64,000 bases of DNA from Escherichia phage SUT_E520, in sequence record OQ990040; one strand, written 5' to 3'. Positions 12,826 to 58,339 of this stretch are shown one piece after another. Within the stretch, counting starts at the first letter, position 1. Each line of letters begins with the position of its first letter. The notes beneath the pieces were generated by a model. The model was not told the origin of the DNA. It worked only from the letters and a program-made list of their open reading frames with translations, and did not search any database. Position numbers and translations under genes: made by a program.

Positions 12826-13416
12826 TCAGACATTTATATCACCACGCAATACAGCAGCTACGTCTTCCCCTATTTGTAATACCTCGCCGGTAGTACAATT
12901 AACTACTCTATCGTAACTAGTAAACTTACCAGACACAATATCTTCTAGTGGAATTGGAGTTTTACTCATTTCAAATGAGACATTGATATAACGTGGATCA
13001 CGTAGAGAAGTAGTATGTACGTGTCCGTGAATATTTAGTTTGCCACGAAGTTCATTAGGGTGCAAAGGGCAGTGAGATAGCCAAAACTTTTTGCCACCTC
13101 CAGTCTGTTTACCTAGAGCCTGAATATCGTCATAAACTTCCGCCAAGTCCCTAATGCTCAGTCCCTGACGTTCTGCATCATGATTACCCATAATCAGTTG
13201 ATTAGGAACATTGTGGATAACCGACTTTAATTTAGCTAGACCTTCACGACCTACTGCAATATCTCCTAGCAAAATAAGTTTTGTTCGTTTACCAATATGC
13301 TTGGACAAAGTATCTAGAATATACTCATCGTGCTCTTTCATGTTCTTAAACCACGGACGGAAACGTAACGCTCCAGGGTGGTCTAGGTGCAAGTCTGACC
13401 AGAATTTAACTTTCAT
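12826..13416 (-). CDS. calcineurin-like metallophosphoesterase
   Basis: motifs DLHLDH, GDIAVG, GNHD, GHVH. Confidence 0.6.
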   Translation of the reverse strand: MKVKFWSDLHLDHPGALRFRPWFKNMKEHDEYILDTLSKHIGKRTKLILLGDIAVGREGLAKLKSVIHNVPNQLIMGNHDAERQGLSIRDLAEVYDDIQALGKQTGGGKKFWLSHCPLHPNELRGKLNIHGHVHTTSLRDPRYINVSFEMSKTPIPLEDIVSGKFTSYDRVVNCTTGEVLQIGEDVAAVLRGDINV

Positions 13417-24349: not shown

Positions 24350-24425
24350 TGGTAGTTAGTAGTGGATTTGAACCACTGTAGTCGCTCCGTATGAAGGAGG
24401 TGCATAACCACTCTGCCAACTAACT
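24350..24425 (-). tRNA. tRNA with CAU anticodon (Met, fMet or Ile2)
   Basis: 7-bp acceptor AGTTAGT/ACTAACT, T-arm AGTGG-TTCAAAT-CCACT, anticodon loop TTCATAC, encoded CCA. Confidence 0.65.
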
Positions 24426-24592
24426 AGTTAATTCTTTATAGGTTAGATCTAGAAGATCTTTCTTACTGATAAGTCCTTCTCTATATTGGTCAATAAACAT
24501 ATCTATTCTAGAGTTCTCTGAGACTTCTATATCAGAAAGTTCAGCAAATATTTTTGCAAGTTTATCAATATCTTCCATACATAACCTTAATT

Positions 24593-24669
24593 TGGTACTC
24601 CGGGAGGGATTTAAACCCCCGATCTCTCGGTTATCAGCCGAGTGCTTTAGATCGCTAAGCTACCGAAGC
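24593..24669 (-). tRNA. tRNA-Ile (anticodon GAU)
   Basis: acceptor GCTTCGG/CCGGAGT with G-U pairs, anticodon arm CTCGG-CTGATAA-CCGAG, T-loop TTTAAAT, CCA. Confidence 0.7.
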
Positions 24670-24670
24670 A

Positions 24671-24898
24671 TTAACATTTTGCAGCAGAACGTTTGCCATT
24701 TCTAGGTGCACCTGGAAGTCGTGCACGTTCTGCCATTCTTCGCTTAATCTTTGAGATATTTTCTAGTGTTTGTTCTTCAGGCTTAATACCTGAAACACTA
24801 CACCACTGATTACCATCCCATGCGGTAATGATCATAACACCATTACTCATGATCTTTTCTGTAAAAGTAATCCTCATTATAGCAACTCGTCTAAGCAA
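24671..24898 (-). CDS. hypothetical protein (75 aa)
   Basis: ORF between tRNA genes. Confidence 0.3.
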   Translation of the reverse strand: MLRRVAIMRITFTEKIMSNGVMIITAWDGNQWCSVSGIKPEEQTLENISKIKRRMAERARLPGAPRNGKRSAAKC

Positions 24899-25170
24899 GA
24901 GGTATATTTAAGTTTACCATCTTTATCTACTTTGATTTCGACTTCCGCTCGTGGTACTTGACGAACTACACCATGAATCATCTTATAGCGAATGCCTTTA
25001 GCTGGTTCATGCTCTTTTGGAAATACTTGCTTAACCGTTACTACCTTAAAACCCTCACGCGGTGTTAACACTACTACTTGATCACCTTCTTTGATCTTCC
25101 AAGAGCCAGGAAATTCATAGGTATAGCGTTGACCACCAGTTTGGAACACAACAGAAAGATAACGTTTCAT
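24877..25170 (-). CDS. hypothetical protein (97 aa)
   Basis: ORF; T5-type promoter motif immediately upstream at about 25180-25215. Confidence 0.4.
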   Translation of the reverse strand: MKRYLSVVFQTGGQRYTYEFPGSWKIKEGDQVVVLTPREGFKVVTVKQVFPKEHEPAKGIRYKMIHGVVRQVPRAEVEIKVDKDGKLKYTSCLDELL

Positions 25171-25237
25171 TTGGCTTCCCTCTCATTAATTTATATAAAT
25201 ATTATAACAATAAATAAGAGAGAAAGCAAATGAATTT

Positions 25238-25405
25238 TTAATAAAGTTTAGTCACTTCATAAACTATACTACGAGATTCTTTATTACGTTCTATTAAATT
25301 AGAATATGCTTTTTCAGCTTCATTTTTAGTATTAAAGTCTATAACGTGGGAGGTATTCGCTCTATTTGATTGACTATACCAGATAACTACTAATAATTTA
25401 AACAT
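25238..25405 (-). CDS. hypothetical small protein (start trimmed to avoid tRNA overlap)
   Basis: ORF 25238-25432 overlaps the tRNA at 25420; internal Met used. Confidence 0.25.
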   Translation of the reverse strand: MFKLLVVIWYSQSNRANTSHVIDFNTKNEAEKAYSNLIERNKESRSIVYEVTKLY

Positions 25406-25419
25406 AATAGTCCTTAAGT

Positions 25420-25506
25420 TGGTGCTGGGCACAGGATTCGAACCTGTAACGGGATTACTCCTCCTGATTACAAATCAGGTGCATTCAACCATTCTGCCAA
25501 CCCAGC
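25420..25506 (-). tRNA. tRNA, anticodon UGU (Thr-type) with long variable arm, 87 nt; isotype uncertain
   Basis: acceptor GCTGGGT/GCCCAGC, anticodon arm CCTGA-TTTGTAA-TCAGG, T-arm ACAGG-TTCGAAT-CCTGT, CCA. Confidence 0.5.
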
Positions 25507-25671
25507 AGAACCCGTTATTTCAACGGGATTTCTTTTTCAATAACAGGAGACTTATCAGTCATAACCGCCATTGCCATTTGTTGTAGAAATTCAAAGGTGA
25601 AGGCTACACGTTCTTCACCAATCTCTACTTCTACACGTTTCTTTTGTTTATCGATCTTGACTTTTAGGTTA

Positions 25672-25923
25672 TCAGCCATTAGAGAGTACAGTACTGGTAG
25701 TTGGCAATACTACAGATGAAGCAACAGTGTTTAAATGCTTTCTCCAGTCTAGGTTAAATTGTTTTCGAAACTCTTCATAAGGTTCTTCTGGATAAAAGCT
25801 AAAACCTCCTTTCTCATCATTCAGGATAACAGAGCCGTCAGTTTGTTCGTATGCTCGGTATGTTTCTCCAATAACAATAACTCGTTTTTCGGTACTTTTA
25901 TTACGAAACTCAAAAACGTGCAT
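25672..25923 (-). CDS. hypothetical protein (83 aa)
   Basis: ORF between tRNA genes. Confidence 0.35.
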   Translation of the reverse strand: MHVFEFRNKSTEKRVIVIGETYRAYEQTDGSVILNDEKGGFSFYPEEPYEEFRKQFNLDWRKHLNTVASSVVLPTTSTVLSNG

Positions 25924-25939
25924 AATGTTTCCTTAAAGT

Positions 25940-26015
25940 TGGAGCGGCTAGAGGGAATCGAACCCTACTCAGCGAGGCTTGGAAGGCCTGCGGCACAACC
26001 CGTGTGCTTAACCGC
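25940..26015 (-). tRNA. tRNA-Gly (anticodon UCC)
   Basis: anticodon loop CTTCCAA; 3' end TAGCCGC-T-CCA resembles E. coli tRNA-Gly(UCC). Confidence 0.65.
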
Positions 26016-26023
26016 TTATTGTT

Positions 26024-26099
26024 TGGCTGGAGAAGGAGGAATCGAACCTACCATTAACGGAGTCAAAGGCCGTTGTGCTAACCGTTACACTACTCTCCA
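26024..26099 (-). tRNA. tRNA-Gln (anticodon UUG)
   Basis: U1-A72, G73, 3' end CCAGCCA as in E. coli tRNA-Gln; anticodon loop CTTTGAC. Confidence 0.7.
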
Positions 26100-26105
26100 A
26101 TTATT

Positions 26106-26181
26106 TGGCTGGGATGCCACGGATCGAACGTGGAACCTTCGGAGTCAGAGGCCGACGATCTGCCAATTGATCTACATCCCA
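26106..26181 (-). tRNA. tRNA-Gln (anticodon CUG)
   Basis: acceptor TGGGATG/CATCCCA, G73, T-arm CCACG-TTCGATC-CGTGG, anticodon loop CTCTGAC. Confidence 0.7.
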
Positions 26182-26193
26182 ATAATTTTTATT

Positions 26194-26388
26194 CTACGGA
26201 AAAATTGTTGTTGGCTCAGATTCTTCCAAACGTTTGCCTTCATGATCAACACGAATAACGCCGCATCCTTCGCAAATCACAACTGCACCATAACCTTCTT
26301 TGACCTCAGCTTCTGTAATCAAACCAGAAAGATCACCAGTATCTTTACCCCACATATCAATGGAGCATTGTTTGCAGAAATCAGCCAT
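26194..26388 (-). CDS. small Zn-ribbon protein (64 aa)
   Basis: CKQC ... CEGC motif pairs. Confidence 0.35.
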   Translation of the reverse strand: MADFCKQCSIDMWGKDTGDLSGLITEAEVKEGYGAVVICEGCGVIRVDHEGKRLEESEPTTIFP

Positions 26389-26413
26389 ATTTTATTTCCT
26401 ATTTAAGTTAATT

Positions 26414-26490
26414 TGGGGTGGCTAGTGGAATTCGAATCCACATAGGCCTGATTCACAATCAGGATCATTAACCAATTATGATATAGCCAC
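26414..26490 (-). tRNA. tRNA-His (anticodon GUG)
   Basis: perfect acceptor GTGGCTA/TAGCCAC, D-arm TCAT/ATGA, anticodon arm CCTGA-TTGTGAA-TCAGG, CCA. Confidence 0.8.
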
Positions 26491-26856
26491 AATTGAAAAC
26501 TCGCAGGGTTAGCGAAACCTTCCTCAATTAGCATGTTCTAGAATACTAATCAAGTTATCTCCTATTGCACGCAGCTCAAGACGAGTACGAATTTTCAATT
26601 GTGGCGGCTCTCAGAAACTCTTCTACTCTAGTCTTAGCAGCTTACTCCCGAACGCATGTCGGGGAAGTCTTACTAAGCGCATCAAATAGCACCGTTACAC
26701 TTTGAGCCATTGGTGTATCAAGAAGCAGAAGGACTTGAACCTTCACGAGATAGACCATTTATCTCAGCCGCTTTATGAGGTATGTTGCAGGGAGTGGATG
26801 TTCCCTATAAACCTTTTAGGCAGCCCCGTCTACCGATTCCGGCATACTTCAGGATT

Positions 26857-26951
26857 TGGAGGTAGGTAAGGGGATCGAACCCTTACACCGTATCACTACG
26901 ATCAACCGATTTCAAGTCGGAGTCCAGCGCCAGCCATTGGATTGACCTACC
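26857..26951 (-). tRNA. tRNA-Ser (anticodon UGA), type II, 95 nt
   Basis: acceptor GGTAGGT/ACCTACC, T-arm AAGGG-TTCGATC-CCCTT, anticodon loop CTTGAAA, long variable arm. Confidence 0.65.
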
Positions 26952-26963
26952 ATATAAATTGTT

Positions 26964-27054
26964 TGGCGGAAGAGGAGAGATTTGAACTCTCAAGCCGTTT
27001 TACCAGTCAGCCACTTTCCAAGCGGTTTTCGTCGCCAATTCGATTTGCTCTTCC
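26964..27054 (-). tRNA. tRNA-Ser (anticodon GGA), type II, 91 nt; D-region atypical
   Basis: perfect acceptor GGAAGAG/CTCTTCC, G73, T-arm GAGAG-TTCAAAT-CTCTC, anticodon loop TTGGAAA. Confidence 0.55.
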
Positions 27055-27166
27055 AATAATAAGATGATGCCTCTATCACACCAGGCAGTTACGCCTCGCT
27101 GGGATTCGAACCCATTAAAACAGCTCAACCGAGATAGTAGGTTTAATTTACTCTGACCATCAAATT

Positions 27167-27243
27167 TGGTGCGTGACAAGGGATTCGAACCCTCAAAACC
27201 CGACTTCTAAGGACGGTATGTATGCCAATTCCATCAATCACGC
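27167..27243 (-). tRNA. tRNA with UAG anticodon (Leu-type) but short variable arm; A73
   Basis: acceptor GCGTGAT/GTCACGC, T-arm GAGGG-TTCGAAT-CCCTT, anticodon loop CTTAGAA with one stem mismatch. Confidence 0.5.
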
Positions 27244-27248
27244 ATGTT

Positions 27249-34643: not shown

Positions 34644-35591
34644 TTACTTGTTACGCATATCCATGATCATTTGACCATCGTAGCCAGTACCTACCACAGT
34701 CTGAGGTACACCACCTTGATACTTCTGAGCACGGATCATTTCAACTTCCAGTTGTTTCCAACGAATCATTTCAGGAGTAATGGTACGTTGCAATGCGGCG
34801 TTAGCTTCAGCTTCTTTCTTAGCTGCGTACAGTTTAGCATCTGCGTCACGTTCATTAGCAATAGCTTGGTTGTTACGAGCTTCACGATCTGCTTCTGCTT
34901 GTTTAACTTTTTGCTGTGCTTCCTGTTCAACGCGAGCAAGTTCAGCTTTCGCAGCATTAACTTGCTCTTCACGAACTTTGGTATTCTGTACCTGTTCCAT
35001 GATTACTGGCGGCAAGGTAATATCCTGAAGGAATACCTGCTTAACTGTGTAACCATATGGGCGCGCATACTCTTCAACTTCCTGTTGAATTGCAGTTTGC
35101 AATTGAGCCTGAATTTTAGCATCAAATAAATCTTGTGCTTTAGGTACAGACTTACCAAACTCACGAATAGTAGACAGTAATTTTTCAGTTACATACTTGT
35201 CTAGTGCCTGATCCTGAGTACCTGCGTTAATACGGTTAATCGGTGCTTTAGAACCATCAAACTGCAACATAACAGTCAGGTCAACAGTGGATTTAAACTT
35301 ATCCTGGCTAGGAACCTGAAGTTTATCTAATTTTACAGCAATATCTTTTGTACTAAAAGTATCGAAAGATGCAAACGGGTTTACAAGATGGAAGCCCGGC
35401 AATACTGGATTAGGGTCTACTTTACCCAGGAATGTTTGGGTTTTAACCGTACCATCAGAAACAATAGTATATGAATTAAAAGCTAGGATTAAACCTGCTA
35501 AACCAACTACAGCACCAATACCCCAACGTTTAATAGTACGAATTACTTTCTGCTCAGAAGTCAGTTCTTTCATATTTTTAGTAGCAAACAT
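34644..35591 (-). CDS. SPFH/band-7 (HflK/C, stomatin, prohibitin-like) membrane protein
   Basis: N-terminal TM WGIGAVVGLAGLILAF, SPFH-like core, long Ala/Glu/Gln-rich coiled-coil. Confidence 0.55.
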   Translation of the reverse strand: MFATKNMKELTSEQKVIRTIKRWGIGAVVGLAGLILAFNSYTIVSDGTVKTQTFLGKVDPNPVLPGFHLVNPFASFDTFSTKDIAVKLDKLQVPSQDKFKSTVDLTVMLQFDGSKAPINRINAGTQDQALDKYVTEKLLSTIREFGKSVPKAQDLFDAKIQAQLQTAIQQEVEEYARPYGYTVKQVFLQDITLPPVIMEQVQNTKVREEQVNAAKAELARVEQEAQQKVKQAEADREARNNQAIANERDADAKLYAAKKEAEANAALQRTITPEMIRWKQLEVEMIRAQKYQGGVPQTVVGTGYDGQMIMDMRNK

Positions 35592-35625
35592 ATATTTCCT
35601 TTGTTTTAGTTACAGTTAATAAAAT

Positions 35626-35700
35626 TGGCCGAGGTGACAGGATTCGAACCTGCATAAAGGAATTTAGAAGACTCCTGCCTCTCCCTTAGACTACACCCCG
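35626..35700 (-). tRNA. tRNA-Arg (anticodon UCU)
   Basis: acceptor CGGGGTG/CACCTCG, anticodon arm GGAGT-CTTCTAA-ATTCC, T-arm GCAGG-TTCGAAT-CCTGT, CCA. Confidence 0.7.
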
Positions 35701-49709: not shown

Positions 49710-49994
49710 TCCTATAGTGTACTTCGCTAACAGAGGATCAACAAAAAGATCTTGTTTATCAACTTACAAATATATTATACCAATATATACAGTAAAAAGC
49801 AACTACAATTTTAAATAAGCCTATGATATTGCATTTAAATAAAAAATTTGCTTGCTTTTAACGTGAGATGTGTGATACTAGATAATCATTTTATATCGCG
49901 TGCACGAGTGTGTGATTATACAATTTTTAATAGAGATTGGCAAATAAAATTTTTTGACTCAGATCATGTTACAGAACTTTATAGTAAAATATTG

Positions 49995-50023
49995 TTGACA
50001 TCCGCCCTCGAATGAGTTATAAT
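49995..50023 (+). promoter_or_regulatory. strong sigma70 promoter upstream of nrdD (-35 TTGACA, 17 bp, -10 TATAAT)
   Basis: TTGACA at 49995-50000; TATAAT at 50018-50023; GAGAAGGAGAG RBS before ATG 50053. Confidence 0.65.
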
Positions 50024-50052: not shown

Positions 50053-51927
50053 ATGAATCGCAATGAAGAACTAAAGTATAAAGAAATGCAGGCGTTAATT
50101 AGAAACTGCAAAGAGATTATCGAAGGGTCAGCAGATGAAGAGCTGCTGTTTAATAATGCTAATAAACCCTCAGAACGTTTCCCTACACAAAGGGATATGC
50201 TTGCAGGTGAATTGAGTAAGTATCTGATTCTAGAAGAAATGCCAATTCAGATTCGAAATGCTCATATGATTGGGGATATTCATTTCCATGATGCTGATTA
50301 TGCTGCATTAGGCATGACTAACTGTTGTCTGGTAGCTTTGGAAGATATGTTGAAGAATGGTATGAAGGTTGGTAATGCTGAAATTAGCACTCCAAACTCT
50401 ATCACTACTGCGGCGGCTATTACTGCTCAGATTATCACTCAGGTTAGCTCCCATCAGTATGGTGGTACTTCTGTAGACCGCCTTGATGAAGTATTAGCCC
50501 CTTATGTTCGTAAATCATATGACAAAAATCATGCGTTTGCAAAACGTTGGACTAAGGATGAAGCCAAAGCATCCGTAATGGCTACGGAGATGACTGAAAA
50601 GGAAGTCTATGACGCTTGTCAGGGTTTAGAATATGAAATCAATACCATGTTCAACTCTAACGGTCAGAGTCCATTTATTACCTTTGGTTTTGGTCTAGGA
50701 ACTTCTTGGGAAGCACGTCTAGTACAGAAAGCAATACTGAAAGTACGCATGGATGGTTTAGGTATCAATAAACGTACAGCTATCTTCCCGAAACTGGTAT
50801 TTGTACTTCGTGATGGTGTTAACATGAAACCAGGAGATGTTAATTATGACATCAAGAAGTTAGCTATGAAATGTACTGCTGAACGTATGTATCCAGATTA
50901 TATCAGCTATGACAAAGTTGTAGAAGTTACTGGAGACTATAAAGTTTCTATGGGCTGTCGTTCATTCCTAGCTGCTACAGAAGATGGTGAAACTGCCGGT
51001 CGTAATAACTTAGGTGTTGTTTCTGTAAACTTGCCTAGAATTGCTATCGAAGCTGAAGGAAATATTGACCTATTTTTTGATTTGCTTGAACTGCGTGTGG
51101 ATACAGCGTTAAAAGCATTGGAGTGGAGAGTTGATCGCTTAAAATACATCCAAGCTAAAGCTGCACCCATCCTCTATATGTCAGGAGCCTTTGGGTTACG
51201 CTTGGAGCCTGATGAATATGTATTCGATCATTTCTATAATCGTGCTTCTGTATCTCTAGGGTATATTGGCTGCCATGAAATGCTACAGTTCATGTTTGGC
51301 AAAGATATAGACACAATGTCCGAGACCTGCATCAAGTTTGTTCAGCGTGTATTGCAGTACATGCGGGATAGAGTCGATCAGAAGAAGGAAGAAACTAAGT
51401 TAGGTTATAGCCTGTATGCTACACCATCAGAATCCCTATGTGATCGCTTTTGTCGTCTAGACCGTGAATATTTCCCGGAACATGAAGATATTCTGTCCAA
51501 AGGATACTACACTAACTCTCACCACCTTGATGTGGAACGTAAAGTTGCTCCTAACGTGAAATTTGATTATGAATCTAACTTTACTCCGATTGCTTCTGGT
51601 GGGTGTATTTCCTACGTAGAATTACCGGATATGAAACGATTCCCAGATGCACTGGAATGGGTTATTAATTATGCTGCTAGTAAGGTTCATTACTTCGGTA
51701 TTAATACTCCAGTGGATTCTTGCGGTAAATGTGGATTCTTAGGTGAAACAATAGCATCCGAAGATGGATTTAAGTGCCCTATCTGTGGTAATCATGACCC
51801 CGAAACTCTTGAAGTAACTCGTCGAGTTTGTGGGTATCTTGGAAATCCGGGTGCTCGTCCATTTAACCCCGGCAAACAGCACGAGGTGATGGGCAGAGTG
51901 AAACATCAGGATATTCGAGCTAAATAA
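50053..51927 (+). CDS. nrdD: anaerobic ribonucleoside-triphosphate reductase (class III)
   Basis: 624 aa; C-terminal Cys cluster CGKCGF...CPICG and glycyl-radical motif RVCGYLG. Confidence 0.75.
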   Translation: MNRNEELKYKEMQALIRNCKEIIEGSADEELLFNNANKPSERFPTQRDMLAGELSKYLILEEMPIQIRNAHMIGDIHFHDADYAALGMTNCCLVALEDMLKNGMKVGNAEISTPNSITTAAAITAQIITQVSSHQYGGTSVDRLDEVLAPYVRKSYDKNHAFAKRWTKDEAKASVMATEMTEKEVYDACQGLEYEINTMFNSNGQSPFITFGFGLGTSWEARLVQKAILKVRMDGLGINKRTAIFPKLVFVLRDGVNMKPGDVNYDIKKLAMKCTAERMYPDYISYDKVVEVTGDYKVSMGCRSFLAATEDGETAGRNNLGVVSVNLPRIAIEAEGNIDLFFDLLELRVDTALKALEWRVDRLKYIQAKAAPILYMSGAFGLRLEPDEYVFDHFYNRASVSLGYIGCHEMLQFMFGKDIDTMSETCIKFVQRVLQYMRDRVDQKKEETKLGYSLYATPSESLCDRFCRLDREYFPEHEDILSKGYYTNSHHLDVERKVAPNVKFDYESNFTPIASGGCISYVELPDMKRFPDALEWVINYAASKVHYFGINTPVDSCGKCGFLGETIASEDGFKCPICGNHDPETLEVTRRVCGYLGNPGARPFNPGKQHEVMGRVKHQDIRAK

Positions 51928-51934: not shown

Positions 51935-51970
51935 AGCCGGGTTGCTAGTCGACCTGGCTTTTATTTTATT
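51935..51970 (+). terminator. rho-independent terminator candidate after nrdD
   Basis: hairpin agccgggt...acctggct followed by TTTTATTTTATTT. Confidence 0.45.
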
Positions 51971-51998
51971 TGCTTTCAGCCAAAAATTTATATATAAT
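51970..51998 (+). promoter_or_regulatory. T5 PN25-like early promoter (-35 TTGCTT, 17 bp, -10 TATAAT)
   Basis: TTTATTTGCTTTCAG and TATAATAGATTTATAAATTTGAGAGGAG closely resemble the classical T5 PN25 promoter/RBS. Confidence 0.65.
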
Positions 51999-52026
51999 AG
52001 ATTTATAAATTTGAGAGGAGAAAGGT

Positions 52027-52407
52027 ATGGAATTAAAGCCCTATATAGTTGAGTCTACATGTGGTGGTTTCCATCTTGGCGTAGACGATCTTAGAGAAGC
52101 TATTTTTGCATCTACTGGAGATTATTCCCATCTAGAGGGTATTGGATATTCATCAATTATTGGTGATTGGGTAGAAACAAATCTAGATGTATCACCATAT
52201 AACTCAGATTGCTTGTTTGACGAGGATGAGGATGAAATAAAGTATGATATTGAATTTGTTTATAATAGAGTATTAAAAGTATACCAACGTAATCCCGAGG
52301 GATACGAAGATATTACTAAAGGTATTAAACAGTATCTTAAAGATGTATACTATAATTTTTCTGATGAAGACCTAGAAACAGTTGCAGTGGAGTTTAATAA
52401 TGGCTAA
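52027..52407 (+). CDS. hypothetical acidic protein (126 aa)
   Basis: first ORF after PN25-like promoter. Confidence 0.5.
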   Translation: MELKPYIVESTCGGFHLGVDDLREAIFASTGDYSHLEGIGYSSIIGDWVETNLDVSPYNSDCLFDEDEDEIKYDIEFVYNRVLKVYQRNPEGYEDITKGIKQYLKDVYYNFSDEDLETVAVEFNNG

Positions 52408-52606
52408 GAATGTAAAACATCTTAAATATCGCTTAATTTACAATGGACGTATGGAAACAGAAGACCTGGCCCAATTAGCTATTAATTCTAACGAGGTTAC
52501 AGTGCGTGCGCTGGCAATTGAAAAGTTGCGTGCCTCTTATGAAAATCGTGTTATGGAACTAGAGGAGAAACTTTATGGCATTCTCGAAGCCGATGCTACC
52601 AGATAA
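52400..52606 (+). CDS. hypothetical protein (68 aa)
   Basis: ATG overlapping upstream stop. Confidence 0.4.
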   Translation: MAKNVKHLKYRLIYNGRMETEDLAQLAINSNEVTVRALAIEKLRASYENRVMELEEKLYGILEADATR

Positions 52607-52796
52607 GGGTTTAAACGCCGCTTTGGAAAACGCATTAATGCAGCACTGGGAAACTGGCTATAAGGATGGTGTTGAATCCTGCGCTACTATGCTAGAAGTT
52701 ATTGCTAATACCTTAATGGAGAAAGGCAATAAAGAATTAGCTGAGCTATTAGACAGTATTGGGCAAAACTTCAGAGAACAGGTGAAAAATGCGTAG
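52575..52796 (+). CDS. hypothetical protein (73 aa)
   Basis: ORF in operon. Confidence 0.4.
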   Translation: MAFSKPMLPDKGLNAALENALMQHWETGYKDGVESCATMLEVIANTLMEKGNKELAELLDSIGQNFREQVKNA

Positions 52797-53604
52797 ATTA
52801 ATTGTTATTAGCGGTGCAGGTTTGAGTGTTGAAAGTGGTGTACGAGCTTTTCGTACTGATACTGCTAGTGGTAAAGCATTGTGGGATGATTATGATCTAG
52901 AAGAAGTATGTAATATTCATGCCTTTCGTGGTAATTTTTATCATAAAACCCATATGTTTTACAACAAGCGTCGTGAAGAGCTAAAAACTGTTGAACCCAA
53001 TCTTGCGCATTTGCGTATCGGTGAATGGTATAAACAATATCCAGGTCAAGTAGTAAACTTGACTACCAACGTTGATGACCTTATTGAGCGTTCTGGCGTT
53101 CCACATAATGACATTCTACACATTCATGGATATTTAAAAGAGGTTGTTGTAGCTGATAGCTACAATAGTAGCAATAAACGGATTATTGATGTAGGATACA
53201 ATTCTATTGATCCAGATGATTATAAATGGGTTAAACCTAATGTAATCTTCTTTGGAGAGCATGCTCCAGCATATGCGGAGATGTACAATGTTTTTGATGG
53301 TATTACCAGTCAAGATATGATCATTGTGGTTGGTTGCTCTAACCAAGTAATTAACTTCTACTGGGAATTATTTCCTGTTCTTAATTTGACTGCTGCCAAG
53401 CTAATGGTTGTTAACTACTATGATAGTGCCCTAGCGGCGGAACCGAGCTATCAAGGTATGACTCGTAGTGAGATGTACCAGCTGGAAGAACGCGGTATCC
53501 CTTACTGGGGTAAAGGTGCGGTAGATGCTTTCAGTGATCCTGATTTTATTGCTCGTGTAGAAGCTCATTTAGGGGGTAGACCTTATGTGTCAGGAAATAA
53601 GTAA
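52789..53604 (+). CDS. Sir2-family (sirtuin-like) NAD-dependent protein
   Basis: ISGAGLSVESGVRAFR, TTNVDDL, HIHG, KPNVIFFGE and IVVGCS match sirtuin NAD-binding and catalytic motifs; no Zn-Cys4 module seen. Confidence 0.6.
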   Translation: MRRLIVISGAGLSVESGVRAFRTDTASGKALWDDYDLEEVCNIHAFRGNFYHKTHMFYNKRREELKTVEPNLAHLRIGEWYKQYPGQVVNLTTNVDDLIERSGVPHNDILHIHGYLKEVVVADSYNSSNKRIIDVGYNSIDPDDYKWVKPNVIFFGEHAPAYAEMYNVFDGITSQDMIIVVGCSNQVINFYWELFPVLNLTAAKLMVVNYYDSALAAEPSYQGMTRSEMYQLEERGIPYWGKGAVDAFSDPDFIARVEAHLGGRPYVSGNK

Positions 53605-54097
53605 TACTCCAATTATTTTTCTAGACATTGATGGGGTGCTCAATTCGAGCATCTCCCACTATCATGCACCTGATGATGAAAAGATTTTCTTTGGAAGTGA
53701 TTGGGTTTTCAAACCGCTTCTCAAGGCTTTTCAGGACTTTATTCGTCCTTCTCCAATAATGATTGTTGGAGTATCATCTTGGTTCTCTGTCAGAAATGAG
53801 ATGGAGAACGTTCAGATTATGACCGGATTAGGCCTTATCGATCGTTTTCTTGGTACAACGGATTTTACTGGTGGTGGATTATCTAGGGGTAATTCTGTTC
53901 TTCGCTTCGTTGAAAAGCATAAGCTCAAACATTGGTGTGTGCTTGATGATGCGGGTGCTATGATGTATCAGTATCCAACGGTTATAGTCAACGGTAGGAC
54001 TGGTATAAATCTTCAAGATTTAAAAGCTGTTAGCTATATGCTAGAATTTAGCCCAGATCTTGAAATGTGTAAATCCTTACAACAATTTAAGGTGTAA
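53585..54097 (+). CDS. HAD-like hydrolase/phosphatase
   Basis: motif I IIFLDIDGVLNS; later VLDDAG-like motif; overlaps Sir2 stop. Confidence 0.5.
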   Translation: MCQEISNTPIIFLDIDGVLNSSISHYHAPDDEKIFFGSDWVFKPLLKAFQDFIRPSPIMIVGVSSWFSVRNEMENVQIMTGLGLIDRFLGTTDFTGGGLSRGNSVLRFVEKHKLKHWCVLDDAGAMMYQYPTVIVNGRTGINLQDLKAVSYMLEFSPDLEMCKSLQQFKV

Positions 54098-54099
54098 AT

Positions 54100-54528
54100 A
54101 TGTTCAATAATGTATTCTCTAAAGAAGCTAACCCAATTTTGGTTAACTTTTGGCGTACTCTTCCAGCTAGCCTGTATAATGAGGCTATTAACTCTTTGAA
54201 AATATGGTGTGAGAATAACGAAATCTACTTTGCTTTTAAAGATGATATTGATGAAGCCCCCTGTATTGGTTTAATTGTTCAGGTAGAGGAGGGTCTTGAA
54301 GAGATTGTCGGCTGGAAAGAGTTAGATGAAATGGGCTTAGTTTTTGCGTTAAACTATAAGCTGTTTATGCCTGCTAAGCATCGCCTCGTTGTTAACTATA
54401 AAACTAGTGAATCTCCTGGTTTTCAAGTTAATGAACGTTACGGTTGGTCTTACTCACCAGAAGAAGTGAATGATGGTATCCAAAAACTTCGCCGTTTCGG
54501 GTATATGATCCCAGGTTTAACTGCTTAA
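54100..54528 (+). CDS. hypothetical protein, tandem paralog A (142 aa)
   Basis: shares D(E/D)xPCIG, W.EL..MGL..ALN..LF.P and IPGL/VPGL with paralog B. Confidence 0.5.
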   Translation: MFNNVFSKEANPILVNFWRTLPASLYNEAINSLKIWCENNEIYFAFKDDIDEAPCIGLIVQVEEGLEEIVGWKELDEMGLVFALNYKLFMPAKHRLVVNYKTSESPGFQVNERYGWSYSPEEVNDGIQKLRRFGYMIPGLTA

Positions 54529-54537
54529 GGAGGCAGA

Positions 54538-54927
54538 ATGGAACAAGTATATTGGCGTCAGATTGACCCTAGTTTGGTGAAACGTGCGGAGAAGCTGCTA
54601 CAACGTTGGTTGGGGGTAAGACAAGCCTCCTTCACTTTTCCTGAGCAGCAAATAGATGATCCATGCATTGGCGTTTTCCTGTCTGGATACGCCAGGGAAT
54701 GGGAACTGGATTGGAATGAGTTGTCTGCTATGGGTTTAATTGTTGCCCTAAATTTCTCTTTGTTCCATCCACGTGGTTTTGCCATATGTCGTGTGCCGGA
54801 TGATGGTTGTTCGCCCCATCTTTTACAGGTGGAAAATGATATTTGGGAGTACACTCCAGATATTCTCAAAGAAGCTAAAGAACAATTAAACCGTGTTGGG
54901 ATATATGTTCCGGGATTAAATGACTAA
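54538..54927 (+). CDS. hypothetical protein, tandem paralog B (129 aa)
   Basis: AAGGAGG RBS; paralogous to 54100-54528. Confidence 0.5.
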   Translation: MEQVYWRQIDPSLVKRAEKLLQRWLGVRQASFTFPEQQIDDPCIGVFLSGYAREWELDWNELSAMGLIVALNFSLFHPRGFAICRVPDDGCSPHLLQVENDIWEYTPDILKEAKEQLNRVGIYVPGLND

Positions 54928-55549
54928 TGATTTTTATTAGCTGAACTCTGATTACCGAGTCATTTTGGCTCGGTTTTATCCGTACTCAAGACCAATGATA
55001 GCACCATCCGGAAAATTTTACTTGCAGGATGCTCAAAATCTTGATATAATATTTATATTGAATTGAGAGATATTAGTAAAAATTGATTTTGCTAATTTTT
55101 CTTGTTTACAATCCGCGATACGGAACAGTTAGGCTGCCCAATTAAGGGTTGTTTTAACTGTTACGTGTTAGTTTTTAAACAAATAGTTAATAGAATACTT
55201 AGCGATCTGCGTCCCGTAGGAACCCTGGTAAGGCCTCGAAGCAACCTAGATAGAGGTGGTTGTGAAGTGAGACGGGAGGAGTGAAAAACTCCGAGACGTG
55301 ATTCTGTAAGTTATATTGCATCTAGTATGAGCTAGTACATGAAGCATTAGGTGAGCAAATCTGGCTTAGCGGCCATCCTCAAGGATTTGTGCGGTATAGC
55401 AAAGCAGCAGCGCAGCGTGAAAGTGGAAGTTGCCACCCCACTTCAGTATTTGCGATTAATTTGTTGAGAAATTGACAGTAACAGTTGTTCTATTCTTTCT
55501 GAATAGTCCTAAAGAAAACTTATTTCATTTCCAACACAGGAGTATTGTT

Positions 55550-58339
55550 GTGTTCTCAATCCTACAAGGTCATGCAGGATTTCATCGCGATTTAGCCACA
55601 GGCAATTGGCGAGAAGTTAAAGCAGAAGACTATCTTTTTGCTAAAAGATTTTCCTCAAAGCATCCTGAAGGTAAACCAGCTTCAATGCCCTTCAAGTTTG
55701 ATGTAATTGATGAAGTTGATCCTCAAACCCTAGTAGAAATGCTTCCTCTTATGAGACGTTTAACGTCTGACCCTCATATCGTTGCGGTACGAGGTCGATG
55801 TCTTACACCTAAAAATAATGTGCGACGTAAGAAGGGCAACTTTAATGTATCTAACCCAAGTCATATAATTGCAATGGACGTGGATGGTATTGTAGATACA
55901 GGTGGTTGCAACAAGTTTGATCTTGTTGGCATGGCTCGACATATTATTAGAATGTTAAATAGTATTAGTGAGGATATGTTTCCTCTTGATGCAGGGTTTA
56001 TCGCTCATGCATCGTCTTCGGCTGGGCTAAAACCAGGTATCCGAATGCACTTAATACTAGAATCTAATGTTAAAGTAACTCAGGGTCAAATCAAATTCTT
56101 ATTTACATCTATCAACGAAAGTAGTAGACAAAAGTATGGCTTTGATATTGCCGACTTAGCTTATTACTCTTCCGTACAGCTCCACTATTTTGCAGATCCG
56201 TTATTTACCGATGGTATAGTAGATCCGTTTAAAGCGGAGGGTGCTTCACGTCTGGTATTTGTTAAGGGTTCTAAAGTAAATTTACCCAATAATCTGGTTG
56301 ACTATGAAACAACTAGAGGTGAGTTTAAGGAGGAGTTTTACTCTTTACTCGATCAAATTAAAGGTAAAAAAGCTGCCTCTGATAAAGTAGAGGAAACTAT
56401 CAGCGAACTAGAAGAAGCTGAGGATGGAGTGTATCTACGTATCATACCTAAACTCTATCACAGAGCCTTAGAGGATGGTGTTGATTTTGCATGGCTAGAA
56501 AAAGAAATCCGTCCAGCCTTATCAGAATATATTGCAACTAAAGATAACAGTCGCAATATTCAAGATTACTTTAATAACGGTCGTAAACAGGCTCTGAAAG
56601 CATTTGTTAATAATTCTAAACGTGATATACCTGATGTTTTAAAGGGTATTCCACTTAAAAAGCTAGAAACTAATTCTCTAGAAACTGATAACTTCTTGAA
56701 ATTAAATACTGTACCACCAGAAGGTTATATGACTTTTGTAAAAGCAAGTCTAGGTACAGGTAAAACTACAGCGGTTGTGCGTTGGTTAGATTCAGGAGTT
56801 ATTAAAGGTAATTTCTTAGCAATTACCAATACTAGAGCACTGGTATCTTCAAATGCCAAGAAATTTAGTGCAGGACAATATGATAAGTCTGTAGATATGC
56901 TTAATTTTAAGCGGGGTGCTATTGACCGTATGTCCACAACTATTCACTCTTTGCATAAATTCAAGAGTTTTATTGGTCAAATTGATGCAATCTTTATCGA
57001 TGAATGTGATGCAGTAATGAATGACCTATTATTCGCCCCGGTTGTTAAACAACGTCGCGAGTGTATTCAGGTTCTTCGGGATATTCTTGCAACTGCAAAA
57101 ATCATTATATTATCTGATGGGGATATTAGTGCAGAAACAATTGAAGCATATGGTTCTTTGATTGAGTTTGATAAACCAGTAGCATTTTATAACCATCACC
57201 GTAAAATGCTATCAAAAGCTCATGCTTATGAGTTCCCGGATGAATCCAGTATTTGGGTTGCACTTCAGACTTCTCTAGAGATGGGTGAGAAATCTATCCT
57301 AGTATCTGACTGTGGGCCGGATGAACTGAATGAGAAGGGTATGGCATTGCGTCGTAATACGGGTGCGTTAGTTAAGGAAATCCACTCAAATTCTACATCC
57401 GATGTAGATATTCGACGTATTCTGGATTACACAACTAATGAGCTAATTGATCAACAAATTGATTGCTTATTATGTAGTCCATCCGTAACAAGTGGTGTTG
57501 ACTTCAACTATTTTGATAACGTATTCGTTATTACTAGAACCAGCAACCAAGCGCCAAACATGCGTTTCCAAGCAATCAGGCGCGACCGTGGCGCTCAGAA
57601 CATTTATTATTTTATTGATAAATCTACGAGTGGATTCTCCGCAGGTTCTGAGCAATATAACATTGACGAAGGTTGGCTGGAGTTAGCACAACAATTATAC
57701 GCACGTCGTAGAGAGCTGGAATCTAGGAATTATACTAGTACTTTACGTTATTACTTGCTTGATCAGGGTGCAACTATTGATATTTTCAGTGAAAGCTGGG
57801 GAACTATCGAAGGTGCTGGGAAGGAATATACGGAAGAGCGAATCAAAGCTATTTTATATTCAACTCCTGATTATTGTGCTCCACGTCATGCTGATGCGTA
57901 TGAAGCTAAACTACTTCTTGTTCGCTACTATCATCTTGAGTCTATTAAAGATGTAACAGTTGAGCATGTTGAACAATATATCAAGGATAAACCTAATGAT
58001 CGAGCGGCATTCTTCCATAAAATGCACGAGATGTTCTGGGAAGATATTAAGAAGTGTTCAAATGTCACTATCAAACCATTCATAGAAGCTCTGAAAGGTA
58101 AGAAGAAAGATTTCTTCCTTAAAACAGGTCAGAGTGCTAACCCAAAATATGCCAGAATGTATCTTGGTATGATGGGTATTGGTAAGGATATGAACACTGA
58201 AAATATTGTAGACTGGTACAGAACCTATTGTAAAATCGAGTGTATGCCAATCCCCTATAAGTTTATGACTGATGAGGAGAAACATATGCATGATGAAGCA
58301 ATGGCAGAGCTAGGTGCTAGAAATGACAGTGAAGAATAA
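55550..58339 (+). CDS. large replication protein: N-terminal primase-polymerase-like region plus P-loop helicase (origin-binding/helicase-like)
   Basis: GTG start at 55550 after AGGAG; HIIAMDVDG acidic motif; Walker A SLGTGKTT; Walker B IFIDECD. Confidence 0.55.
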   Translation: MFSILQGHAGFHRDLATGNWREVKAEDYLFAKRFSSKHPEGKPASMPFKFDVIDEVDPQTLVEMLPLMRRLTSDPHIVAVRGRCLTPKNNVRRKKGNFNVSNPSHIIAMDVDGIVDTGGCNKFDLVGMARHIIRMLNSISEDMFPLDAGFIAHASSSAGLKPGIRMHLILESNVKVTQGQIKFLFTSINESSRQKYGFDIADLAYYSSVQLHYFADPLFTDGIVDPFKAEGASRLVFVKGSKVNLPNNLVDYETTRGEFKEEFYSLLDQIKGKKAASDKVEETISELEEAEDGVYLRIIPKLYHRALEDGVDFAWLEKEIRPALSEYIATKDNSRNIQDYFNNGRKQALKAFVNNSKRDIPDVLKGIPLKKLETNSLETDNFLKLNTVPPEGYMTFVKASLGTGKTTAVVRWLDSGVIKGNFLAITNTRALVSSNAKKFSAGQYDKSVDMLNFKRGAIDRMSTTIHSLHKFKSFIGQIDAIFIDECDAVMNDLLFAPVVKQRRECIQVLRDILATAKIIILSDGDISAETIEAYGSLIEFDKPVAFYNHHRKMLSKAHAYEFPDESSIWVALQTSLEMGEKSILVSDCGPDELNEKGMALRRNTGALVKEIHSNSTSDVDIRRILDYTTNELIDQQIDCLLCSPSVTSGVDFNYFDNVFVITRTSNQAPNMRFQAIRRDRGAQNIYYFIDKSTSGFSAGSEQYNIDEGWLELAQQLYARRRELESRNYTSTLRYYLLDQGATIDIFSESWGTIEGAGKEYTEERIKAILYSTPDYCAPRHADAYEAKLLLVRYYHLESIKDVTVEHVEQYIKDKPNDRAAFFHKMHEMFWEDIKKCSNVTIKPFIEALKGKKKDFFLKTGQSANPKYARMYLGMMGIGKDMNTENIVDWYRTYCKIECMPIPYKFMTDEEKHMHDEAMAELGARNDSEE

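What the first reader, a model, noticed from the sequence alone, without database searches (positions are those of the whole stretch)
52789..54927. Sir2-like protein, HAD phosphatase and tandem paralog pair in one early operon
The Sir2-like ORF has intact NAD-binding and catalytic motifs (GAGxSxESG, TTNVDDL, HG, FFGE) but apparently lacks the Zn-Cys4 module, resembling bacterial Sir2 effector domains more than canonical deacetylases. It is translationally coupled to a HAD-type phosphatase and followed by two tandem paralogous genes. All sit downstream of a PN25-like promoter and nrdD. A phage Sir2 could be an NAD-consuming or ADP-ribosylating enzyme acting on host targets, or could interfere with NAD-based defences; the HAD enzyme might process the nucleotide product.
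Basis: partly seen in the sequence, partly recalled or inferred. Interest (0 to 1): 0.55.

Follow-up and report, generated by a model that had tools for sequence, protein, structure and literature searches.

The report
T5 sirtuin–HAD phosphatase accessory operon
This is the known, dispensable early operon of T5-like phages (T5.100–T5.107), which pairs a zinc-less CobB-like sirtuin with an RNA-repair-type HAD phosphatase and two DUF7415 proteins; the pairing was described and assigned to RNA repair by computation in 2022, and its real activity has never been tested.

Summary
The window is a Tequintavirus, 100% identical to phages SUT_E1520 and SUT_E420. Positions 52789-54927 encode a 271-aa SIR2 protein (Pfam 4e-24), a 170-aa HAD_SAK_2 phosphatase (9e-20) and two paralogous DUF7415 proteins (31% identity, E 6e-19). 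They lie in a seven-gene unit between an N25-like promoter and a terminator.

The sirtuin keeps every catalytic and NAD-binding motif and lacks the zinc cysteines in all 121 clade members checked. It does not resemble defence Sir2 effectors. By sequence and predicted fold its nearest relatives are E. coli CobB, Sir2Af and SIRT5, it keeps the class III Tyr-x-x-Arg motif, and no PADLOC model matches it.

The genes are T5.102 and T5.105-T5.107. Iyer et al. 2022 already described the sirtuin + "Swiss-army-knife" HAD neighbourhood in Tequintavirus SP15 and predicted KptA-like removal of RNA 2'-phosphate. I reproduced the context: orthologues in rV5-like phages sit with Rnl1, cREC, a kinase and a phosphoesterase.

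New here:
- The DUF7415 pair and a T5.100-like protein are further linked partners.
- DT57C has naturally lost Sir2 and HAD.
- CRISPRi-ART scored T5.100-T5.106 "Not Fit" (the T5.107 row is cut off in the retrieved text).

The mechanism is unproven. T5-likes carry no RNA ligase and all module proteins are acidic. Already known; modest interest.

The parts
51935..51959 (+). Intrinsic terminator after nrdD. It separates nrdD from the operon.
   Evidence: 10-bp stem, 6 GC pairs, then a T-run. T5 and Lindwurm annotate a terminator at the same place.
51968..52005 (+). N25-like sigma-70 early promoter (TTGCTT, 17 nt, TATAAT) that drives the seven-gene unit.
   Evidence: Sequence read. The alignment shows it is the orthologue of T5's annotated unnamed promoter before T5.100, and its core is nearly identical to the true P-N25.
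52027..52407 (+). orf126, the T5.100 homologue (phrog_11748). A very acidic protein (pI 4.1) of unknown function that is also linked to Sir2 and HAD in Erwinia phage KEY and Pantoea phage AAS21.
   Evidence: (BLASTP 2e-12 to KEY orf118). It has no Pfam match and is not related to cREC.
52382..52606 (+). Small ORF, the T5.101 homologue (phrog_5236); function unknown. The annotated start in phage Lindwurm corresponds to about 52400.
52575..52796 (+). Small ORF of 73 aa (phrog_5827); function unknown. It is absent from T5 itself, and its stop overlaps the Sir2 start (ATGCGTAG).
52789..53604 (+). Zinc-less class-III-like sirtuin (T5.102 homologue). Key residues: GAGLSVESG aa 9-17, F21-R22, Y58-x-x-R61, N94, D96, H113 (catalytic), FFGE 154-157.
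   Evidence: - Family matches: Pfam SIR2 4e-24; phrog_2162 5e-119.
- Closest solved structure: CobB 1s5p at 4e-17 by sequence, and Foldseek E 2e-17, TM 0.84.
- Invariant residues.
53585..54097 (+). HAD-superfamily phosphatase of the HAD_SAK_2 ('Swiss Army Knife RNA repair') family (T5.105 homologue). Motif residues: D14-x-D16, S64/S65, TGGG..R101, D121-D122.
   Evidence: Pfam PF18143 9e-20. The motif residues are invariant in alignment A5. There is no sequence relative in PDB.
54100..54528 (+). DUF7415 protein a (T5.106 homologue), built from two DUF7415 repeats.
   Evidence: Pfam 1e-36 with two matched stretches; phrog_2502.
54538..54927 (+). DUF7415 protein b (T5.107 homologue), a paralog of the preceding gene. 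It is an internally duplicated small alpha/beta fold with no solved relative.
   Evidence: - Paralogy: BLASTP 31% identity, E 6e-19.
- AF2 model pLDDT 96.3.
- BFVD returns only DUF7415 proteins.
54954..54979 (+). Terminator hairpin (ACCGAGUCA-UUU-UGGCUCGGU followed by UUUU) that ends the operon.
   Evidence: RNA fold -14.8 kcal/mol, z -2.4. Identical to the terminator annotated after T5.107.

Best explanation
The locus is the conserved early accessory operon T5.100-T5.107 of T5-like phages, transcribed by host RNA polymerase from an N25-like promoter.

Shown:
- It encodes an NAD+-binding sirtuin with a complete catalytic set and the class III Tyr-x-x-Arg anion-binding motif, but no zinc site.
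- It encodes a catalytically intact, minimal-cap HAD phosphatase of the family found in multi-domain RNA-repair proteins.
- It encodes two internally duplicated DUF7415 proteins.

Inferred, following Iyer et al. 2022 and the gene neighbourhoods reproduced here: the sirtuin and the HAD enzyme heal RNA ends damaged by host metal-independent ribonucleases such as anticodon nucleases.
- The sirtuin would use NAD+ to take off a 2'-phosphate, as Tpt1/KptA does. The phosphate oxygen attacks C1'' of NAD+ and releases nicotinamide. The ribose 2''-OH, activated by His113, then attacks the phosphorus and yields 2'-OH RNA plus ADP-ribose 1'',2''-cyclic phosphate.
- These steps parallel the two steps of sirtuin deacylation.
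- Tyr58 and Arg61, which bind the carboxylate of succinyl-lysine in SIRT5 and CobB, would hold the phosphate.
- The HAD enzyme would remove terminal 3'/2' phosphates or dephosphorylate the ADP-ribose phosphate by-product.
- Sealing would have to be done by a host ligase, because T5-likes encode none.

The module is dispensable on laboratory hosts, so it would be a conditional counter-defence function. The role of the DUF7415 pair is unknown; it is linked to the module but can persist without it.
For: Identity of the parts:
- Family and structure assignments.
- Catalytic residues are invariant in 121 clade members.

Context of the sirtuin:
- Orthologous sirtuins (57-64% identical) in rV5-like, Mydovirus-like and phi92-like phages sit inside Metallophos - Rnl1 (T4-type tRNA ligase) - cREC - AAA_33 kinase clusters.
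- The HAD-Sir2 link survives a rearranged gene order in Erwinia phage KEY and Pantoea phage AAS21, where the order is HAD - T5.100-like - Sir2.

Context of the partners:
- In the T4-like Aeromonas phage PX29, HAD_SAK_2 lies 2 kb from rnlA, and a stand-alone DUF7415 gene starts at the rnlA stop codon.
- Sugarlandvirus keeps Sir2 followed by the DUF7415 pair.
- Klebsiella (pro)phage proteins fuse a MazG-like domain to DUF7415. MazG is listed among sirtuin neighbours in PMC9503650.

Literature:
- PMC9503650 section 3.7.3 describes exactly this sirtuin + SAK-HAD neighbourhood in Escherichia phage SP15 and proposes the KptA analogy. SP15 is a Tequintavirus.

Accessory status:
- CRISPRi-ART scored T5.100-T5.106 'Not Fit'; the T5.107 row is cut off in the retrieved text (PMC11879866 supplement).
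- DT57C carries a deletion that fuses remnants of Sir2 and HAD.
Against: - No biochemical or genetic test of any phage sirtuin was found.
- T5-like coliphages lack the rest of a repair pathway. There is no Rnl1 or cREC homologue in the window, and Rnl1 hits in the phage database fall almost entirely outside E. coli/Salmonella T5-likes.
- The same Rnl1-kinase-DNA ligase cluster exists without a sirtuin in Aeromonas phage phiA019.
- The KVP40 sirtuin has no recognisable RNA-repair neighbours.
- Every protein of the module is acidic: Sir2 pI 5.5, clade median 5.2, HAD 5.5, DUF7415 4.7-4.8. That is unusual for enzymes that grip RNA.
- The acyl-lysine pocket residues of CobB are conservatively retained, so ordinary deacylase activity is not excluded.
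- Gene neighbourhood in densely packed phage early regions is weak evidence.
Confidence: 0.38

Rival explanations
1. The sirtuin is an ordinary CobB/SIRT5-like protein lysine deacylase, probably preferring acidic acyl groups such as succinyl or malonyl. It would strip acyl marks from host or phage proteins early in infection. One candidate target class is the adenylate-forming enzymes: CobB reactivates acetyl-CoA synthetase, and by analogy the phage enzyme could reactivate the ligases encoded next to it in rV5-like phages. Under this reading the HAD phosphatase and the DUF7415 proteins are unrelated neighbours.
For: - The closest relatives by sequence and fold are all bona fide deacylases.
- The catalytic His, Asn and Asp, the FGE loop and the Tyr-x-x-Arg motif are invariant.
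- The acyl-pocket positions named in the CobB engineering structures (A76, Y92, I131, V187; descriptions) align to C41, Y58, V95 and V152, which are conservative changes. This mapping uses CobB numbering recalled from memory.
- An acidic enzyme suits basic protein substrates.
- In rV5-like phages the gene is flanked by an RNA ligase and a DNA ligase, both of which use an active-site lysine.
- PMC5107563 argued for deacetylase function of the zinc-less Vibrio phage homologues.
Against: - The host already supplies CobB.
- NCBIfam scores are far below the CobB equivalog cut-offs: 89-99 bits against cut-offs of 243-320.
- The substrate-groove motif GTSxxVYP of CobB is replaced by the invariant GCSNQVINF, so the conserved proline is lost.
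- The zinc site, which canonical sirtuins need for stability, is gone in the whole clade.
- This reading does not explain the repeated linkage to the HAD phosphatase in two different gene orders.
Confidence: 0.3
2. The sirtuin is an NADase or an ADP-ribosyltransferase that modifies host targets, or an anti-defence enzyme that destroys NAD-derived immune signals. The HAD enzyme would clean up the nucleotide product.
For: - Sirtuins can ADP-ribosylate (general knowledge; reviewed in PMC9503650).
- The enzyme has an intact NAD+ site.
- The module is non-essential, as many anti-defence genes are.
- T5-like phages carry NAD+ supply and consumption functions: the NARP3 pathway in Bas30 (PMC13464706) and an NAD-dependent DNA ligase.
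Against: - There is no similarity to defence or NADase-type Sir2 proteins.
- No macro-domain partner is present, unlike SirTM systems.
- T5 depends on NAD+ for its own ligase, so bulk NAD+ depletion would harm the phage.
- The invariant catalytic His and the Tyr-x-x-Arg motif argue for a defined nucleophilic substrate rather than water.
Confidence: 0.15
3. The sirtuin and the HAD enzyme form a small-molecule nucleotide pathway. In analogy to the reported CobB substitution for CobT followed by the CobC phosphatase, the sirtuin would transfer a (phospho)ribosyl group from NAD+ or NaMN to a base, and the HAD enzyme would dephosphorylate the product. That would fit a nucleotide-metabolism gene block (nrdD, nrdAB, phoH, with DUF7415 next to nrdD/nrdG elsewhere).
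For: - The operon sits directly after nrdD and near nrdA, nrdB and phoH.
- In Klebsiella T4-like phages a DUF7415 gene lies between nrdD and nrdG.
- DUF7415 is fused to a MazG-like NTP pyrophosphatase.
- PMC9503650 recalls the CobB/CobT link.
Against: - The CobT-like activity of CobB has only genetic support (own knowledge).
- HAD_SAK_2 is a minimal-cap HAD of the kind that usually acts on macromolecular ends.
- No base-modification phenotype is known for T5 DNA or RNA.
- There is a terminator and a separate promoter between nrdD and the operon.
Confidence: 0.07

Closest known systems
Phage sirtuin + 'Swiss-army-knife' HAD neighbourhood of Escherichia phage SP15 (Iyer, Burroughs, Anantharaman, Aravind 2022, Viruses 14:1977; PMC9503650 section 3.7.3)
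   Same: It is the same gene pair in the same genus: SP15 is a Tequintavirus, and its DUF7415 protein is 97% identical to the one here (H28). The sirtuin belongs to the same phage clade and the HAD to the same family. The predicted role is the same: KptA-like removal of RNA 2'-phosphate.
   Different: Nothing substantive. The paper does not mention the DUF7415 pair, the T5.100-like partner, the natural deletion in DT57C or the fitness data. Those are added here.
E. coli CobB / human SIRT5 (class III sirtuin protein deacylases)
   Same: - Best sequence and fold match.
- Shared GAGxS, FR, FYNxRR (Tyr-x-x-Arg), PNxAH, (T/Q)N(V/I)D, HG and FGE motifs.
- Rossmann domain plus a small beta-sheet domain.
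   Different: - No zinc cysteines.
- Only 22-26% identity.
- Scores below the NCBIfam CobB cut-offs.
- The VYP substrate-groove motif is replaced by VINF.
- The C-terminal region is longer.
- The protein is acidic.
- The gene context is phage RNA-repair and nucleotide genes.
Tpt1/KptA RNA 2'-phosphotransferase
   Same: This is the proposed functional analogue. It is NAD+-dependent, works in two steps, and goes through a 1'',2''-cyclic ADP-ribose species. It acts after tRNA ligation or healing.
   Different: The fold is unrelated (ART superfamily versus Rossmann sirtuin) and there is no sequence similarity. Tpt1 enzymes are basic proteins (own knowledge), whereas this one is acidic. The activity of the phage enzyme is untested.
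T4 Pnkp-Rnl1 tRNA repair pathway
   Same: The phosphatase domain of T4 Pnkp is also a DxDxT HAD enzyme (own knowledge). Orthologous sirtuins in rV5-like phages sit in operons with Rnl1, a P-loop kinase and a phosphoesterase.
   Different: The T5-like module has no kinase and no ligase. The HAD protein here is a stand-alone protein of a different HAD family.
Defence-associated Sir2 effectors (ThsA, DSR1/2, Sir2-HerA, SPARSA)
   Same: Only the Sir2 superfamily fold and NAD+ binding are shared.
   Different: There is no PADLOC match and none appears among the top 50 Foldseek hits. There are no sensor or partner domains. The gene is encoded by a virulent phage in an early operon.

Membership tests
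Sirtuin / SIR2 superfamily (PF02146) | Profile match above the curated threshold, and a Rossmann fold with the GAGxS NAD-binding loop | tested here: met
   86 bits against a cut-off of 24. GAGLSVESG is invariant. The AF2 model superposes on CobB at TM 0.84.
Sirtuin / SIR2 superfamily (PF02146) | Catalytic His plus the Asn/Asp of the (T/Q)N(I/V)D motif | tested here: met
   H113, N94 and D96 are present in 121 of 121 clade members and align to the CobB residues.
Sirtuin / SIR2 superfamily (PF02146) | Cys4 (or Cys3) zinc site in the small domain | tested here: not met
   All 121 sequences have 0-2 Cys between H113 and P150. The CobB cysteine positions are replaced. The three-stranded sheet is still predicted with pLDDT above 90.
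Class III sirtuins (CobB/SIRT5 type) | Tyr-x-x-Arg motif that binds acidic acyl groups | tested here: met
   F57-Y58-N-K-R61-R62 is invariant and aligns to CobB FYNARR.
Class III sirtuins (CobB/SIRT5 type) | Orthology to CobB by the NCBIfam equivalog threshold | tested here: not met
   NF040867 scores 88.7 bits against a cut-off of 320; NF001753 scores 99 against 243.
Class III sirtuins (CobB/SIRT5 type) | NAD+-dependent lysine deacylase activity | not testable with these tools
   This needs an enzyme assay. No published assay of a phage member was found.
Defence-associated Sir2 NADases | Match to defence-system Sir2 models, or closest structural similarity to them, together with sensor or partner domains | tested here: not met
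   PADLOC gives no hit. The Foldseek top 50 are all canonical deacylases. The neighbours are a HAD protein and DUF proteins.
SirTM (macro-domain-linked ADP-ribosylating sirtuins) | Genomically coupled macro domain | tested here: not met
   No macro domain occurs in any of the seven operon proteins. PMC9503650 makes the same point.
HAD superfamily, HAD_SAK_2 family (PF18143) | Profile match, plus motif I DxD, motif II S/T, motif III K/R and motif IV acidic pair | tested here: met
   71.9 bits against a cut-off of 27.5. D14, D16, S64, S65, R101 and D122 are invariant across T5-like, Erwinia, Aeromonas and Morganella phage homologues.
Phage sirtuin-centred RNA-repair systems (Iyer et al. 2022) | Sirtuin of the phage clade in a conserved neighbourhood with RNA end-processing enzymes | tested here: met
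   HAD_SAK_2 is adjacent here and in KEY and AAS21. Orthologues sit with Rnl1, cREC, AAA_33 and Metallophos.
Phage sirtuin-centred RNA-repair systems (Iyer et al. 2022) | A complete heal-and-seal set (kinase and RNA ligase) in the same genome | tested here: not met
   There is no Rnl1 or cREC homologue in the 64-kb window and only marginal P-loop hits. Rnl1 is essentially absent from E. coli/Salmonella T5-likes. RtcB-type ligases were not searched for.
Phage sirtuin-centred RNA-repair systems (Iyer et al. 2022) | RNA 2'-phosphotransferase activity of the sirtuin | not testable with these tools
   This is a prediction only and requires biochemistry.
DUF7415 (PF24187) | Profile match | tested here: met
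   125 and 110 bits against a cut-off of 27, with two repeats in each protein.

The most novel reading that the evidence does not exclude
The zinc-less phage sirtuin clade is the first sirtuin whose physiological nucleophile is a nucleic-acid phosphate (an RNA 2'-PO4 or a terminal phosphate) rather than an acyl-lysine. It would be a convergent replacement of Tpt1/KptA that re-uses the class III Tyr/Arg anion pocket. It would work with the HAD phosphatase, and the DUF7415 and T5.100-like proteins would be previously unrecognised accessory factors of a ligase-less RNA-healing counter-defence that hands healed ends to a host ligase.
Probability: 0.3. Interest if true: 0.7.

Novelty: already known. 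Interest (0 to 1): 0.3.

Why it matters
If the published prediction is right, a sirtuin would catalyse RNA 2'-phosphate removal. That would be a new reaction class for a heavily studied enzyme family and a new phage answer to RNase-based immunity, and it sits in the tractable model phage T5.

The work here narrows what to test:
- The enzyme is CobB/SIRT5-like, not defence-like.
- It keeps an anion-binding pocket.
- It is non-essential on laboratory hosts.
- A natural Sir2/HAD-null relative, DT57C, already exists.

As a genome-scan finding it adds nothing beyond existing annotation and a 2022 comparative-genomics paper, apart from linking DUF7415 and T5.100-like proteins to the module.

Tried and rejected
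- **True P-N25.** A search for the exact P-N25 sequence gave 0 matches at up to 3 mismatches. Alignment then showed the promoter is an N25 paralogue, the unnamed T5 promoter before T5.100.
- **Second Sir2 gene.** Many pharokka-annotated records label the HAD gene as a second Sir2. BLASTP finds no similarity between the two proteins. The label comes from phrog_18062, which derives from Sir2/HAD deletion chimeras such as the DT57C 'defective Sir2'.
- **T5.100-like protein as a divergent cREC domain.** I tested this because it occupies the cREC position next to Sir2. It is rejected: hhalign probability 0.1%, no Pfam hit for any of 11 family members, and pairwise E only 0.025.
- **MazG or DUF7415 genes in the rV5-like sirtuin neighbourhood.** None was detected by Pfam in Raoultella phage Ro1.
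- **Structured RNA in the operon and flanks.** Rfam found nothing at E <= 0.1.
- **KVP40 sirtuin context.** No RNA-repair domains were detected there.
- **HAD protein against PDB by sequence.** No hit even at E 10.
- **Literature on the individual genes.** Searches for DUF7415 and for the T5.102/105/106/107 gene names in main texts found nothing.


Full report
**What is there**

The window is a T5-like phage. The 3.4-kb stretch around the finding is 100% identical to Escherichia phages SUT_E1520 and SUT_E420 and 93-97% identical to many Tequintavirus genomes.

ORF listing confirms four + strand genes at the stated coordinates:
- 52789-53604, 271 aa
- 53585-54097, 170 aa
- 54100-54528, 142 aa
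- 54538-54927, 129 aa

Pfam assigns them to SIR2 (E 4e-24), HAD_SAK_2 'HAD domain in Swiss Army Knife RNA repair proteins' (9e-20), and DUF7415 twice (1e-36 and 9e-32, each protein holding two repeats). PHROGs agrees. The last two proteins are paralogs (31% identity, E 6e-19).

They form the distal part of a seven-gene unit:
- nrdD (50053-51927) ends in a strong terminator at 51935-51959.
- A promoter TTGCTT-17-TATAAT follows at about 51968-52005.
- Then come orf126, two small ORFs, Sir2, HAD and the DUF7415 pair.
- A terminator hairpin at 54954-54974 closes the unit. It is identical to the one annotated after T5.107.

Gene junctions overlap or are separated by 2-9 nt, and each has a Shine-Dalgarno sequence.

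The promoter is the orthologue of an unnamed annotated T5 promoter. Its core closely resembles P-N25, but P-N25 proper lies upstream of D2.

In T5 the genes are T5.100, T5.101, T5.102 (Sir2), T5.105 (HAD), and T5.106 and T5.107 (DUF7415). T5 carries two extra small ORFs between Sir2 and HAD, so the 20-nt Sir2/HAD overlap seen here is specific to this lineage.

**The sirtuin**

The Cys cluster that binds zinc in CobB is replaced. No clade member has more than two cysteines in the corresponding segment. AlphaFold2 (mean pLDDT 90.8) still predicts the three-stranded small-domain sheet with confidence.

The protein does not resemble defence Sir2 effectors:
- phmmer against PDB ranks E. coli CobB first (4e-17), followed by Sir2Af1/2, SIRT5, Sir2Tm and SIRT3/2.
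- Foldseek of the model gives the same order (CobB E 2e-17, TM 0.84), with no defence Sir2 in the top 50.
- NCBIfam hits are all CobB-type deacylase models, though far below their equivalog cut-offs.
- PADLOC has no match.

The class III Tyr-x-x-Arg motif (F57-Y58-N-K-R61-R62, aligned to CobB FYNARR) is invariant.

One clear departure from canonical sirtuins is the substrate-groove motif. CobB's GTSGHVYP becomes the invariant GCSNQVINF, which loses the conserved proline.

The clade is phage-specific and widespread. 997 phage records carry a homologue, including T5-likes, Vequintavirinae, Mydovirus, phi92-like phages, KVP40-like vibriophages and the jumbo phage RaK2.

**The HAD protein**

All four HAD motifs are intact and conserved in homologues from Erwinia, Aeromonas and Morganella phages: LDIDGVLNS with D14/D16, S64/S65, TGGG..R101 and D121-D122. 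There is no sequence relative in PDB. The short segment between motifs I and II suggests a minimal cap, as in HAD enzymes that act on macromolecular ends. This last point is an inference.

**Context and what is already known**

Iyer, Burroughs, Anantharaman and Aravind (Viruses 2022; PMC9503650 section 3.7.3) describe a distinct clade of phage sirtuins in three neighbourhood types. [quoted passage not shown] They predict that the sirtuin removes RNA 2'-phosphates in the manner of KptA. SP15 is a Tequintavirus, and its DUF7415 protein is 97% identical to the one here. The central pairing of this finding and a mechanistic hypothesis for it are therefore already published. The Sir2-like gene of T5 has been annotated since the genome paper, as cited in PMC5107563, which also noted zinc-less phage Sir2/CobB proteins.

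I reproduced the context independently:
- Orthologous sirtuins (57-64% identical) in Raoultella phage Ro1, a 133-kb metagenomic phage and Erwinia phage pEa_SNUABM_55 lie in Metallophos - Rnl1 - cREC - AAA_33 kinase clusters next to a DNA ligase.
- In the T5-like Erwinia phage KEY and Pantoea phage AAS21 the order is HAD_SAK_2 - T5.100-like - Sir2. The HAD-Sir2 link therefore survives rearrangement.

**Additions beyond the literature**

1. orf126 (T5.100) is homologous to the gene between HAD and Sir2 in KEY and AAS21 (2e-12). That makes it a third linked component. It belongs to a tiny family (nine representatives), is very acidic (pI 4.1), has no Pfam match and is not related to cREC.
2. The DUF7415 pair is linked to the sirtuin without HAD in Sugarlandvirus, where the order is nrdD - orf69 - Sir2 - DUF7415 - DUF7415.
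3. The core of DUF7415 is a domain of about 70 aa that also occurs as a stand-alone protein.
   - In the T4-like Aeromonas phage PX29, a stand-alone copy starts at the stop codon of rnlA, and a HAD_SAK_2 gene lies 2 kb upstream.
   - In Klebsiella T4-likes it lies between nrdD and nrdG.
   - In Klebsiella (pro)phages it is fused to a MazG-like domain.
5. Dispensability.
   - The CRISPRi-ART screen of T5 scored T5.100-T5.106 'Not Fit'; the T5.107 row is cut off in the retrieved text (PMC11879866 supplement).
   - Phage DT57C carries a 90-aa 'defective Sir2' that fuses a Sir2 fragment to the HAD C-terminus while keeping the DUF7415 pair.
   - Such chimeras explain why phrog_18062 is labelled Sir2 and why many genomes annotate the HAD gene as a second Sir2. 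The two proteins are unrelated.

**Mechanism**

The best-supported reading is the published one: an NAD+-dependent RNA-end healing function used against RNase-type defences.

The chemistry is plausible. Tpt1 and sirtuins both start with an oxygen nucleophile attacking C1'' of NAD+, followed by attack of the ribose 2''-OH, and the Tyr/Arg pocket could hold a phosphate. This is inference.

I give it only about 0.38, for these reasons:
- T5-like coliphages have no RNA ligase, kinase or cREC.
- The Rnl1-kinase-ligase cluster exists without a sirtuin in Aeromonas phage phiA019.
- The KVP40 homologue shows no repair neighbours.
- All module proteins are acidic; the Sir2 clade has pI 4.6-6.05.
- The deacylase pocket is conservatively retained.

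The rivals are:
- an ordinary CobB-like deacylase (about 0.30);
- a small-molecule (phospho)ribosyl-transfer pathway (about 0.07).

**Verdict**

The feature is real but already annotated, and its key association has already been interpreted in the literature. No experiment on any phage sirtuin was found. Interest is modest. It rests on an attractive, cheap-to-test hypothesis in a model phage and on the small extension of the module to DUF7415 and T5.100-like proteins.

Noticed in passing
window 49915-50023: A divergent pair of near-consensus sigma-70 promoters sits between phoH-side genes and nrdD: TTGACA-17-TATAAT (12/12) on the + strand at 49995-50023, and TTGCCA-17-TATAAT (11/12) on the - strand at 49943-49915. 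This point coincides with the switch of GC skew from negative to positive near 50 kb.
   Followed up: partly
window 53585-54097; L012 (DT57C) 2980-3252: Many database genomes annotate the HAD gene as a second 'Sir2 (NAD-dependent deacetylase)'. The cause is phrog_18062, which matches the HAD C-terminus (6e-58) and a short Sir2 segment. It derives from deletion chimeras such as the 90-aa 'defective Sir2' of DT57C. This is an annotation error that propagates through pharokka and RefSeq.
   Followed up: yes
L006 (T5) 5244-5602, compared with window 53585-53604: The number of small ORFs between Sir2 and HAD varies from 0 to 2 among T5-like phages (T5.103 and T5.104, both phrog_5116). Likewise orf73 (52575-52796) is absent from T5. 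The operon is a mosaic of conserved enzymes and exchangeable small ORFs.
   Followed up: partly
window 54928-55550: About 620 nt of non-coding sequence lies between the operon terminator and the replication-origin-binding helicase gene. T5 annotates a promoter there. Rfam found no match. ORF listing offers a TTG start at 55472, but related genomes annotate a start near 55551.
   Followed up: partly
window 24350-35700 (- strand): A cluster of 21 tRNA genes, typical of T5-like phages. It is relevant background for any tRNA-repair or anticodon-nuclease evasion hypothesis.
   Followed up: no
window 12940-13404 (- strand): A weak tblastn match (E 2e-4, 22% identity) to the Metallophos phosphoesterase that accompanies Rnl1 and Sir2 in Raoultella phage Ro1. 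It may be a calcineurin-like phosphoesterase encoded elsewhere in the T5-like genome.
   Followed up: no
L007 (Klebsiella phage Roth20) 3980-4213; P0218/P0221: A stand-alone DUF7415 gene sits between nrdD and nrdG in many Klebsiella T4-like phages. 185-aa Klebsiella (pro)phage proteins fuse a MazG-like NTP-pyrophosphatase domain to DUF7415. This hints at a nucleotide-related role for this uncharacterised domain.
   Followed up: partly
L008 (Aeromonas phage PX29) 2661-5228: The gene order is td - HAD_SAK_2 - DUF4326 - denA - rnlA - DUF7415. This places two of the T5 module's families around the T4-type RNA ligase in a T4-like phage that lacks the sirtuin at this locus.
   Followed up: partly
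L002 and L005 (rV5-like phages), upstream of the Sir2 cluster: PRPP synthetase and NAPRTase genes, plus a NADAR-domain gene downstream, flank the Rnl1-Sir2 cluster. NAD+ synthesis genes and ADP-ribose-processing genes are therefore neighbours of the sirtuin in these phages.
   Followed up: no
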